DNA from: Pseudobdellovibrionaceae bacterium
GTDB lineage: Bacteria; Bdellovibrionota; Bdellovibrionia; Bdellovibrionales; Bdellovibrionaceae
NCBI GenBank assembly: GCA_041288045.1
Contig: JBGGMM010000065.1
Coordinates: 1 to 22,195 of the forward strand
Length of the DNA: 22,195 nt
Direction: 5' to 3'
Shown here: positions 9,001 through 12,000 of the stretch, piece by piece
How the letters are laid out: every line of letters starts with the position of its first letter
Numbering within the stretch: the first letter of the stretch is position 1
Made by a program: the position numbers

Positions 9001-12000
9001 AAATCATTTCCGGAGCCACTCTGGGCGCCATTCTTGGCGGCTTGGGTTTGATTCGCATTCTATTGTGGCCAACCCGCGAAGCTCTTTATGGGCCTCACTA
9101 TGTCTATGTCGGAATCACCGTCGCTCTGAGCGTGCTCGGAGTTGTTTTGTGGGGAACAATCACCGGAGCCATGCTCCCCTTTGCTTTGAAAAGATTAGGA
9201 GTCGATCCAGCGACGGCTTCGGCGCCATTCGTTGCGACACTGGTGGATGTCTCCGGGTTGGTGATTTATTTTTCTGTTGCGCACTTGTTTTTGGGTGGGC
9301 TTTTGCTTTGATTTTTCTGCTTCTCTAGCACAGCGGTGACGATTGTAAACGTGAGTGTGTCCGGCCGGGCCGTCTGGCAAGTTTAAAAAAGGCAGTCGAT
9401 TGGGATTTGATTTTTTAAAATGCAAGTCTGCGCTCTGCCTATCGTCTGTCTATAAGCAGACGATAGGCAGAGTGCTGCTTGAACGACACCATCATTTGCG
9501 GCGTTCAGAAAACACTGCGGCATTTTTGCTTTGAGTTTCTCATTTTGAACTGCCGATTGCACGGATGCAGGAAGATCATGAAGTGACCGATACCCCAGCG
9601 ATTAGTAATTCGCGACTTTTACAAGCTTCTGAGTCCACTGGCGGATGCTTGAGAGGACATTGTCTCTGGCTTGGTCGAATTGCACACCGTAGGCTTTGTT
9701 TTTCTCGCTCCAGACGATGTGACCTTGGACTTGGACCTGTTCGATTCCGTCAGGGCTTTGGATCTGCATGGTGAGAATGCCGCCTTTTTCAAGCAGAGTA
9801 TTGGCTTCGAATGACAATCCACCTTCTGAAATGGTTCGCATATGACCGATCAGTTCTCGTCCATCGACATTCAAGCGGATGGCTGAATTCATCAAGAATC
9901 GATCGAAGCGACGGCGCTGCTGACGTCGACCTGCCCGGGCGCGGACGATCTGCCAAACAAGCAGCGGAAGCAAAGTGAATGCGATAATGATTGCAAAAGT
10001 TGGCGTGGGAGTTTGCTTGTTTCCGCCAAAGAGAAGGGCCGTGCTGACGGTCCCACAGCCTTTCGGACTATCTCCACTGGATTCTTCACTGGACGCGACT
10101 TCGCGAGATTCGGCTTTGTAAGTGGGTTGCGATGGTGACGTGTTGACTTCAGATTTGGCAGCCATGACAGCATCATAGGCATCCACTCGGGCTCCTGAAA
10201 TCAATTTGCCATTTAGACTTGAATAGGTGCTCGCCGAATTGACCAGAAGATTTTTCACTTGATAACCGGTTAAATCCGAAGCTTCTCGCAGAACCAAGGC
10301 CGCAAGTCCACTGACGAAAGGAGCGGCCATGCTTGTCCCCGACATGAAACGATAGTTGTTGTTTCCAGGGTGCATCGAGGTCGCAGGCACTGAACTGTAA
10401 ATCGAAACACCGGGAGCTGCCACGTGCACACTGCCCGGGCCATAATTTGAGAAGGAAGCTAGATTATTGTAGTCATTTGTTGCTGCCACTGAAATCTGAC
10501 CTGGGATTGGGTAGTTCGCAGGGTAGATCATCGTTGAATCATTGTTCTTCGAATAATTTCCTGCAGCTGAAACCACAAGGACTTGTCGCGAATAAGCATA
10601 AGACAAAGCATCGTGCAGGGCTTGACTGTAGCTGGGGCCACCCCAGGAATTATTGATGATCTGGGCGCCATTATTAACGGCGTAATAAATGGCTGCGATC
10701 GCATTTGAAGTCGAACCCGAGCCATCCGAGCCAAGAAATTTCAAAGCCATCAGACGGATTCGAGCAGGTTCCAAAGTCGTTGCACCGATGTTCTGTCCGA
10801 CTCCGAGAACGATTCCAGCAACATGAGTCCCGTGCTCATCATCATCGATTGGATTTCCATCCCGATTGTGAAAGTCATATCCATAAATGTCATCGACGTA
10901 TCCATTGCCATCATCGTCAGTGTTATTGCCGGCAATTTCACCGGTGTTTGTCCACATGGCGTTCGACTGCTGAAAAATTTTGTGATTGTAATCGACCCCG
11001 GTATCAATGATGGCGACGATTGGCTTTTCTGGATTTTGCGCCAAAGTCAAAATCTGCTGCCAAGCTTGATCGACACCCAGATTCTGAGCGCCAGATTGAT
11101 CGTAAGTATCTCCGGATTGGTACTGGGCATGAGCTTCGTCGCCGTTCACAACTTCGCCGGCTTCTAAGCTGTCTTCAACTTTTCTGAAAATGTAATTGGG
11201 CTCAGCGTACTCGACTGCGGGATCGGCTTTGAGTTCGTTGATCTTTGCTTGCAGATTTTCGCCAGCTTTGAGTGAAAACCGATGCATGTTCATCGCCGGA
11301 AATGAATTTTTGAGAGCCATTTTCCCCTGCATTTTTCCAATGAATTGGGTGGCTGATGCTGACGAGGATTTGCCTTTCAGCTTGACGATCAATTCGCCCG
11401 GCACAAAGTCCTGCGCTTGCGCTTTGACAAAAGACAAGCAACCGACCAGCAGTAGTATGAAGTGACGGACCTGAAGTGGCATACCAAATACTCTTCGGAT
11501 CAAGGTCCAGAGGACTGGAGACTTTGGTCGAAATTCTCATTTCAAGACACTTACCTTTAGAGTCCATAAACCTCCCTTTCATTTCAATTTGGGATTACAC
11601 TATGGAGAGTTGCAGAAAGAGACACAGCATGAAGGCCTTCAACAAGATTTTCTTCCGCGGACTGATCACTCTTCTTCCGATCGCGATCACCATTTACATC
11701 GTTTATAGCGCTGTGGTGATTCTTGAAAATCTTTTGGGTTCGATTTTAAGACAGCTCCTTCCAGAGTACATTCCAGGCTTGGGATTGCTTCTCACTCTCG
11801 TGCTGATTTTCCTCTTTGGACTTCTACTCAATAATTTTATCACTGTCCGACTGCTGCACTCTCTCGAAGATAAGCTGGTGCAAGTGCCTTTCATCAAAGC
11901 CATTTATTCGCCCCTTCGGGATTTGATGAATCTTTTTGACCGCAAAGGCGGCCAAGAAATGCAGAGCGTGGTTCTGGTCCGGCTTGGCGAAACCGGCGCT

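What a model noticed while it worked through the whole genome (the two positions that open the first line are those of the whole stretch)
9602..11482. Membrane-tethered subtilisin with a cytoplasmic PilZ domain: a one-protein transmembrane c-di-GMP receptor-protease
g00758 (626 aa) reads signal peptide - fervidolysin-type propeptide - S8 subtilisin domain - linker with an invariant Gly-Cys-Gly - one transmembrane helix - Arg-rich stretch - PilZ domain. The protease must lie outside the cytoplasmic membrane and the PilZ domain inside, with the c-di-GMP-binding RxxxR motif starting right at the cytoplasmic end of the helix (as in cellulose synthase BcsA). This predicts inside-out control: cytoplasmic c-di-GMP acting through one helix on an extracytoplasmic protease (its activity, or its release at the GCG site). 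The family keeps this architecture in 58 other protein clusters.
Evidence so far: Pfam: Fervidolysin_NPro-like 20-96, Peptidase_S8 153-419 (E 6e-58), PilZ 522-617 (E 1e-17); the sequence shows an N-terminal signal peptide, the hydrophobic FAIIIAFTLLPLLVWQIV followed by RARAGRRQQRRRFDR and TISEGG. A search with residues 440-626 found 59 clusters, all carrying PF00082 + PF07238. In an alignment of 26 of the 59 (100-40% identity) invariant: catalytic D145, H205, S369, G460-C461-G462, P491 in the helix, R509 and R513 (RxxxR), G539-G540 (xxSxxG). No NCBIfam CTERM-sorting model matches the tail; weak likeness of helix + PilZ to CelA/BcsA. A second protein, g02505, ends with SSGCG - 19 residues - helix - RRK.
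(Added by a program. Inside this text positions count along the whole contig: contig position 1 is position 1 of the stretch shown here. "Call 12" and the like, gene names such as g00115 and contig names such as C1 are that model's own, and its searches are not shown. The text may have been shortened before it was handed on; [...] marks where a part breaks off. The agent that wrote the report below was given it as the finding of a first reader that could run no searches.)

Follow-up and report, generated by a model that had tools for sequence, protein, structure and literature searches.

The report
Predator protease with messenger-gated anchor
Predatory Bdellovibrio-type bacteria make a hunting-phase protease that sits outside the inner membrane and is held by a cysteine-bearing membrane tail shared with many of their exported proteins; in this protein the tail continues into an inside signal-sensing domain, which may let the cell decide when or where the protease is let go.

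Summary
The protein is signal peptide - prodomain - intact S8 subtilisin - disordered linker - GCG - one helix - PilZ, single-copy and near-universal in its order. It matches B. bacteriovorus Bd2545 (NP_969350.1) by gene order and domains. The S8+PilZ pairing was tabulated in 2008, and published data show a FliA-type promoter and about 2,500-fold attack-phase induction. This scan found the same protein before on another genome.

New here: the GCG-spacer-helix-basic segment is a Bdellovibrionota-wide C-terminal tail, seen at the end of 74 exported proteins of several unrelated families. It resembles MYXO-CTERM but scores below its models, and no myxosortase was found. Five PilZ-less subtilisins with this terminal tail group with the family, so PilZ sits behind a sorting-type anchor.

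A disordered, variable-length linker argues against allostery through the helix; control of retention, release or placement is likelier. The PilZ keeps RxxxR (143/143) but has Thr/Ser for the canonical Asp/Asn (136/143), so c-di-GMP binding is unproven and 3',3'-cGAMP is a testable alternative. Cleavage, lipidation and binding are not shown.

The parts
11492..11519 (-). FliA (sigma-28)-like promoter: CCGA-type -10 box at 11499-11492, degenerate -35 at 11519-11515; implies a very short leader before the ATG
   Evidence: A similar box lies 92-144 nt before a conserved N-terminal anchor in 20 of 31 related loci (one probably spurious, loci not independent). The Bd2545 promoter is scored 'FliA site: yes' in the PMC3627812 supplement.
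11414..11482 (-). Sec signal peptide, residues 1-23, probable signal peptidase I site after A23
   Evidence: Sequence and hydropathy. A hydrophobic N-terminus is present in 77 of 91 full-length relatives. C15 is not conserved in orthologues, so a lipoprotein signal is unlikely.
11195..11413 (-). Fervidolysin-type prodomain (residues 24-96)
   Evidence: Pfam PF22148 E 3.7e-13
10154..11026 (-). S8 subtilisin domain (residues 153-443) with D160, H217, N309, S384
   Evidence: Pfam PF00082. D160 and H217 are 57/59 (2 gaps), N309 and S384 59/59. The model matches subtilisins in PDB.
10061..10153 (-). Ser/Glu-rich linker (residues 444-474), disordered from about residue 461
   Evidence: pLDDT < 50 for 461-494; low conservation
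10052..10060 (-). Gly-Cys-Gly signature (C476) of a Cys-type anchoring/sorting tail
   Evidence: Cys in 141 of 143 non-identical tails; the same motif lies before a terminal helix in 74 other exported proteins
9944..10000 (-). Single transmembrane helix (residues 495-513) with invariant P506
   Evidence: Hydropathy 2.28; helix 495-519 in the model; Pro 143/143
9899..9943 (-). Arg-rich cytoplasmic stretch ending in the RxxxR motif (R524, R528)
   Evidence: R524 and R528 143/143
9632..9919 (-). Cytoplasmic PilZ domain (residues 522-617); motif 2 reads T550-I-S552-E-G-G555 (9835-9818)
   Evidence: Pfam PF07238; model pLDDT 89; best structural matches are Alg44, BcsA and VCA0042 PilZ domains; position 550 is T 107, S 29, C 4, N 2, D 1 of 143
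11629..13619 (+). Divergent neighbours: DUF502 gene and a 465-aa hypothetical gene (context only)
   Evidence: Present in 13 and 12 of 19 orthologue loci
7911..9311 (+). Convergent neighbour mgtE (context only; supports equivalence with Bd2544-Bd2545)
   Evidence: Pfam; 6 of 19 loci; Bd2544 is MgtE in the PMC2797640 supplement

Best explanation
This is the attack-phase subtilisin of Bdellovibrionales (the Bd2545 family). Shown by sequence or published data: it has a Sec signal, a prodomain and an intact catalytic site; it is held in the inner membrane by one helix with PilZ inside; in B. bacteriovorus it is transcribed almost only in the hunting phase. Strongly inferred: the GCG-spacer-helix-basic segment is the phylum's Cys-type C-terminal anchoring/sorting tail, with PilZ added behind it. 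Inferred by analogy with MYXO-CTERM: the Cys is lipidated or otherwise modified, and the chain can be cut near it so that the protease moves to the cell surface or is released, possibly through the type II secretion system. Inferred: a cyclic dinucleotide bound by the PilZ domain (c-di-GMP most likely) decides whether, when or where this happens, by changing access of the helix to a processing enzyme or by docking it on a cytoplasmic partner. It does not switch catalysis directly.
For: A profile built from 41 terminal tails, with no S8-PilZ rows, finds the GCG-helix segment of this protein (E 3.7e-7) and of many orthologues. In G000 a 46-tail profile scores it 28.3 bits against a best unrelated ORF of 10.2 among 18,627. 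Of 40 loci fetched after, 31 carried a terminal Cys tail, 3 were S8-PilZ and 6 lacked the Cys tail. 20 of 20 loci fetched after one search carried one, 15 of them from other classes. Carriers are unrelated: M10 metalloproteases, SCE4755-family, C25/PorU-like, S8, galactose-oxidase-like and Gly-rich proteins. The metalloproteases' best, sub-cut-off match is a myxosortase-dependent family. Five PilZ-less subtilisins with the terminal tail fall on one branch with 28 S8-PilZ proteins (support 96/74). MYXO-CTERM has a GCGC signature and is cut in a Cys-dependent way (PMC11980579 passages). G000 has a GspD over its cut-off. PilZ fold and RxxxR are intact. Expression in B. bacteriovorus: RPKM 11,906 in attack phase against 4.3 in growth phase, and the protein is detected by 13 peptides.
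Against: No processing enzyme was found: myxosortase core over cut-off in 0 of 61 genomes; CPBP family in 20 of 41 and not in G000, which is 83% complete; no PrsW or exosortase in G000; none recurrent in neighbourhoods. Only 1-6 carriers per genome were detected, and in many complete genomes this protein is the only one. A profile from the one family found independently of the tail scores this protein at 12.3 bits, level with background, so the stronger profile is partly circular: its other rows were first found with a profile that contained this family. The 96/74 branch is not firmly supported, and the PilZ-less members checked are not syntenic. Motif 2 lacks the canonical Asp/Asn. No cleavage, lipidation, topology or binding experiment exists in what I could read.
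Confidence: 0.42

Rival explanations
1. The tail is never cut. It is a permanent inner-membrane anchor (Cys lipidated, or in a disulfide with a partner). The protease works in the predator's own periplasm, and PilZ only places or clusters it.
For: No cognate sorting protease found. Few carriers per genome. A cytoplasmic domain fixed in 143 tails makes most sense if it stays attached. Bd2545 is recovered in the quantitative predation proteome and is not named in the main text of the host-independent supernatant study, although it is about 8-10-fold down in such cells.
Against: A plain anchor does not need an invariant Gly-flanked Cys, 7-33 residues before the helix, in several unrelated families. 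The four known tails of this design each have an assigned processing protease, shown for MYXO-CTERM and predicted for the other three.
Confidence: 0.27
2. One reading: c-di-GMP binding moves the single helix and switches the extracytoplasmic protease on or off, as in BcsA.
For: RxxxR lies close to the helix end; P506 is invariant; BcsA PilZ regions are among the structural matches; weak CelA hit, E 0.005.
Against: At least 34 disordered residues separate protease and helix. Cys-to-Pro spacing is 24-51 and Pro-to-Arg spacing 14-28, which is hard to reconcile with rigid coupling. The Pro is also present in 61 of 74 terminal tails that have no PilZ, so it belongs to the tail, not to a relay.
Confidence: 0.1
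3. The PilZ domain no longer binds a nucleotide and is a protein-interaction module, or the signal runs outside-in: cutting the tail frees a helix-PilZ fragment that acts in the cytoplasm.
For: Asp/Asn of motif 2 is present in only 3 of 143, against 81 of 87 in other PilZ domains from the same search. PilZ domains with degenerate motifs can be non-binding adaptors (PMC3131395 passages).
Against: Both arginines are 143/143, Ser 136/143 and Gly 142/143. A dead site would be expected to drift at the arginines, and Thr/Ser keeps a hydrogen-bonding group.
Confidence: 0.14
4. Not exclusive of the others: the ligand is 3',3'-cGAMP, alone or besides c-di-GMP.
For: B. bacteriovorus makes cGAMP through Bd0367, where an Asp-to-Ser change relaxes base choice (PMC9140294 passages). 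A receiver-GGDEF protein is found in 38 of 41 genomes, with Ser at the equivalent position in 29 of 30 loci read, including G000. That the PilZ Asp/Asn reads the guanine edge is recalled from PilZ structures, not tested here.
Against: The argument is an analogy between unrelated folds. The Ser-type GGDEF also occurs in two genomes without this protease (G027, G032). Other PilZ domains in G000 also deviate at this position (Glu in three, Ser in one). No PilZ cGAMP receptor appeared in the listing.
Confidence: 0.15

Closest known systems
B. bacteriovorus HD100 Bd2545 (NP_969350.1, Q6MK66)
   Same: Subtilisin + PilZ (PMC2605481 table; called a pilZ gene in PMC2797640). Same neighbours (ABC transporter, mgtE, two hypotheticals), 1,887-nt gene, FliA-type promoter.
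   Different: No direct sequence comparison with the named record was made. The papers read give only domain lists and expression: no topology, tail, binding or mutant data.
MYXO-CTERM / myxosortase (also JDVT-, Synerg- and CGP-CTERM)
   Same: Cys signature, spacer, one helix, basic cluster; similar kinds of cargo (M10-like metalloproteases, SCE4755 family).
   Different: Here the tail is followed by a 100-residue PilZ domain, the helix has a conserved Leu-Pro-Leu, the models are not reached by this protein, no myxosortase is found, and carriers are 1-6 per genome rather than dozens.
Membrane-linked PilZ receptors BcsA and Alg44
   Same: PilZ fold with RxxxR near a membrane helix.
   Different: Their output is polysaccharide synthesis and motif 2 is canonical. 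Here the output domain is a protease across the membrane behind a disordered linker.
Mycosins (type VII secretion subtilisins) and V. cholerae VesB (GlyGly-CTERM protease)
   Same: Exported serine protease held by a C-terminal helix; VesB is released by an intramembrane protease (listing and passages).
   Different: Mycosin model score 152 against a cut-off of 279; neither has a cytoplasmic nucleotide sensor.

Membership tests
Peptidase S8 (subtilisin) | Asp-His-Ser triad and oxyanion Asn in a subtilisin fold | tested here: met
   D160, H217, N309, S384 conserved; Pfam; fold
Peptidase S8 (subtilisin) | Proteolytic activity | not testable with these tools
   Needs an assay
Canonical c-di-GMP-binding PilZ | PilZ beta-barrel fold | tested here: met
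Canonical c-di-GMP-binding PilZ | RxxxR motif | tested here: met
   143 of 143
Canonical c-di-GMP-binding PilZ | D/N-x-S-x-x-G motif | tested here: not met
   First position Thr/Ser in 136, Asp/Asn in 3 of 143; Ser 136, Gly 142
Canonical c-di-GMP-binding PilZ | Measured c-di-GMP binding | not testable with these tools
   Rotem 2016 pull-down paper not held
MYXO-CTERM | Tripartite design: invariant Cys signature, helix, basic cluster | tested here: met
MYXO-CTERM | Position at the C-terminus | tested here: not met
   PilZ follows in this protein; terminal in 74 other carriers
MYXO-CTERM | Score over TIGR03901 or TIGR03382 cut-off | tested here: not met
   No hit for this protein; of 41 terminal tails one reaches the TIGR03382 cut-off, at 18.3 bits
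MYXO-CTERM | Cognate myxosortase (NF040914) in the same genomes | tested here: not met
   0 of 61 over cut-off, 13 with weak hits
MYXO-CTERM | Cys-dependent cleavage and surface display | not testable with these tools
   No peptide-level or blot data available
GlyGly-CTERM / rhombosortase | Tail model match and dedicated rhomboid | tested here: inconclusive
   2 of 41 tails hit weakly; rhomboids occur in 41 of 41 genomes, which does not discriminate
Mycosin (TIGR03921) | Score over curated cut-off | tested here: not met
   152 against 278.75 bits

The most novel reading that the evidence does not exclude
Bdellovibrionota have their own Cys-type surface-sorting signal, processed by an enzyme outside the known sortase-like families. 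In this core attack-phase protease the signal is gated from inside by a PilZ domain retuned (Asp/Asn to Thr/Ser) to read 3',3'-cGAMP. It would be a second-messenger-controlled sorting signal and a PilZ-type cGAMP receptor.
Probability: 0.1. Interest if true: 0.92.

Novelty: new variant of a known kind. Interest (0 to 1): 0.63.

Why it matters
B. bacteriovorus has about 15 PilZ proteins and cyclic-dinucleotide control of its life cycle, but few links from these messengers to its predatory enzymes. This gene is a conserved, strongly attack-phase-specific candidate in a genetically tractable predator. In the known families read about here, Cys-type sorting tails end the protein; one followed by a receptor domain suggests that protein anchoring or release can be regulated from the cytoplasm. 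The tail also marks a set of probable surface or envelope enzymes across Bdellovibrionota whose processing enzyme is unidentified.

Tried and rejected
Cognate sorting enzyme, not found: myxosortase core, CPBP family, PrsW and exosortase in G000. Rhomboids are universal. CPBP neighbourhoods held a tail protein in only two cases, G038 and G010.

A second Lgt paralogue in G000 looked like a candidate lipidating enzyme. Two or more Lgt are the rule across the phylum, and three tail-bearing genomes (G072, G079, G191) show only one, so it was not adopted.

The NCBIfam 'invert_tail' model did not pick out these tails. A lipoprotein signal at C15 was rejected because the Cys is not conserved.

Homodimer prediction of residues 467-626 with c-di-GMP gave no answer (score 0.00 against a mark of 0.42) and is not used either way. 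A single-sequence PDB search of the PilZ part found nothing; the profile search gave weak PilZ hits. The sigma-70 scan was at chance level, and the strict FliA pattern did not hit the promoter.

Bd2545 was absent from the held supplements of PMC11003981, PMC11025332 and PMC11323537. Synteny of the PilZ-less subtilisins with this locus was not found in the five checked.

Full report
OBSERVATION. The gene lies on the minus strand, 11482-9602, and encodes 626 aa. Pfam finds a fervidolysin-type prodomain, an S8 domain and a PilZ domain. Hydropathy shows an N-terminal signal and one internal helix, 495-513; C476 is the only Cys of the mature chain. In an alignment of all 59, GCG, P506, R524, R528, G554 and G555 are invariant and the catalytic residues are kept. 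An AlphaFold2 model (mean pLDDT 86.7) shows prodomain, subtilisin, a disordered stretch 461-494, helix 495-519 and a PilZ barrel. The tail alone (pLDDT 89) matches the c-di-GMP-bound PilZ domains of Alg44, BcsA and VCA0042.

DISTRIBUTION. Matches reaching into the tail occur in 38 of 41 related genomes (one is cut by a contig end; not found in G005, 81% complete, nor in G027 and G032). A profile of the tail plus PilZ finds one copy in G000 and in 24 of 24 genomes of the family, 17 of 21 others of the order, 1 of 1 other of the class and 0 of 154 of other classes, at E 1e-15. Named relatives are Bdellovibrio and Bdellovibrionaceae genomes.

WHAT IS IN PRINT. Tripathi and Sowdhamini 2008 (PMC2605481, passages; supplement unreadable) list 'Subt-PilZ' for NP_969350.1. 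Karunker 2013 (PMC3627812, passages and supplement rows) equates this accession with Bd2545. It gives RPKM 11,906 in attack phase against 4.3 in growth phase, a monocistronic transcript and a FliA site. Lambert 2010 (PMC2797640, passages and supplement rows) calls Bd2545 a pilZ gene, down to about 0.6-fold on prey entry and 0.10-0.13-fold in host-independent growth, with the same neighbours as in this window. Lai 2025 (PMC12546842, supplement rows) detects the protein by 13 peptides. Its level is steady to 1 h (5.0-5.2) and lowest at 4 h (3.7), on a scale I read as log2 because the differences equal the listed log2 fold changes. Equivalence to Bd2545 rests on gene order, domains, length and promoter type, not on a direct alignment. 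A similar -10 box lies upstream here and in 20 of 31 loci. Ten searches showed no paper on its topology, tail, binding or mutant. The library lacks most subscription papers, including Rotem 2016 (recalled only), and unseen supplements could hold binding data.

THE GCG SEGMENT IS A SHARED TAIL. A motif scan of 18,627 ORFs of G000 gave three hits: this protein, a Gly-rich exported protein on C209, and a short spurious ORF. The C209 family was found in 16 of 41 genomes by homology; all 15 members with an intact end keep a Cys motif before a terminal helix. A joint profile matched 57 of 61 genomes. Of 40 loci then fetched, 31 had a terminal Cys tail, 3 were S8-PilZ and 6 lacked it. A profile of 41 terminal tails alone matched 68 of 201 genomes of the phylum and recovered the internal segment of the S8-PilZ proteins. 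20 of 20 further loci fetched were exported proteins with a terminal Cys tail, 15 from other classes. Over 74 terminal tails, selected by these profiles or by homology, the motif is GCG in 52, the Cys lies 7-33 residues before the helix, 71 have two or more basic residues after it and 61 a Pro in the helix. Cargo includes M10 metalloproteases, SCE4755-family proteins, C25/PorU-like giants, subtilisins and a galactose-oxidase-like protein. In a tree of 47 S8 domains (none dropped, midpoint root), five PilZ-less subtilisins with the terminal tail lie among 28 S8-PilZ proteins (branch support 96/74). Three of them come from genomes where S8-PilZ was not found, but none of the five is syntenic. 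Against: a profile of the independently found family alone scores this protein at background level (12.3 bits; median 9.4 over 143), because the spacer is longer here, so the stronger profiles are partly circular.

RELATION TO KNOWN SORTING SIGNALS. The design matches the Cys-containing tails described by Haft (bioRxiv 2023.06.07.544157; parts 1 and 6 of 7 and passages; Bdellovibrio is not mentioned) and shown to be cut by myxosortase (PMC11980579, passages). It is not a member by model or by enzyme: one of 41 tails reaches a MYXO-CTERM cut-off, this protein reaches none, and no myxosortase passes its cut-off in 61 genomes. CPBP proteases occur in 20 of 41 genomes. So it looks like MYXO-CTERM, but processing is unproven. 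G000 has a type II secretin.

THE PILZ SITE. Among 143 non-identical tails both arginines are invariant, but the first residue of motif 2 is Thr in 107, Ser in 29, Cys in 4, Asn in 2 and Asp in 1. Other PilZ domains from the same search have Asp/Asn in 81 of 87. The canonical motifs are RxxxR and D/NxSxxG (PMC3131395, passages). The pattern suggests a working but altered pocket. B. bacteriovorus makes 3',3'-cGAMP through an Asp-to-Ser GGDEF variant (PMC9140294, passages), and the same variant is present in G000 and 28 other loci of 30 read. This permits, but does not show, cGAMP sensing.

MECHANISM. Sec export and prodomain-assisted maturation place an active subtilisin outside the inner membrane during the attack phase (inferred from sequence and S8 biology). 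Direct allostery through the helix is unlikely given the disordered linker and variable spacers. The likelier role of the PilZ domain is to decide the fate of the anchor, whether retention, cleavage and export, or placement (0.42). Rivals are a permanent anchor (0.27), a ligand-blind or outside-in PilZ (0.14) and direct allostery (0.10); cGAMP as ligand (0.15) is compatible with several of these.

EARLIER SCAN NOTES. e1-3514394 described the same protein on another genome, and e1-2399373 and e1-1382063 noted Cys tails on a Gly-rich protein and a metalloprotease. They agree with, and did not supply, the results above.

VERDICT. The feature is real. The domain pair is already listed in print, and the tail is a new variant of a known kind of signal with an unusual receptor extension. 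Interest 0.63.

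Noticed in passing
G000:C209:37797-39578 (L024, L025): Gly-rich exported protein of no Pfam family with a terminal GCG tail; it follows a response regulator and sensor kinase in 15 of 21 loci and faces a 777-aa gene.
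   Followed up: partly
L099-L118 (M10 metalloproteases): Matrixin-like proteins with the terminal Cys tail have a conserved 200-230 aa upstream gene of no Pfam family in 11 of 12 loci.
   Followed up: partly
L122, L123, L189: Very large exported proteins (1,171 to 3,539 aa open frames) with a gingipain C25/PorU-like domain and the terminal Cys tail.
   Followed up: no
G000:C104 (L184:1480-2541): Second, longer Lgt paralogue in which the His of the 'HGG' motif seen in the first copy is replaced; two Lgt copies are usual in the phylum.
   Followed up: partly
G000:C26:4531-5634 (L215): Receiver-GGDEF protein with Ser at the base-selecting position, a probable cGAMP synthase of the Bd0367 type.
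   Followed up: partly
G000 C4, C154, C56, C217: Several other PilZ domains have RxxxR with Glu or Ser in place of Asp/Asn in motif 2.
   Followed up: no
window 12222-13619 (+): 465-aa protein with no Pfam match, next to the DUF502 gene in 12 of 19 loci.
   Followed up: no
window 20222-22191 (-): Adjacent genes that read like a rhodanese-type tRNA selenouridine synthase and a selenophosphate synthetase (recognised from the translation; names recalled, not searched).
   Followed up: no
L117, L134, L136, L137: A conserved 250-270 aa family with a terminal helix and Lys cluster but no Cys; a useful negative control for the tail.
   Followed up: no
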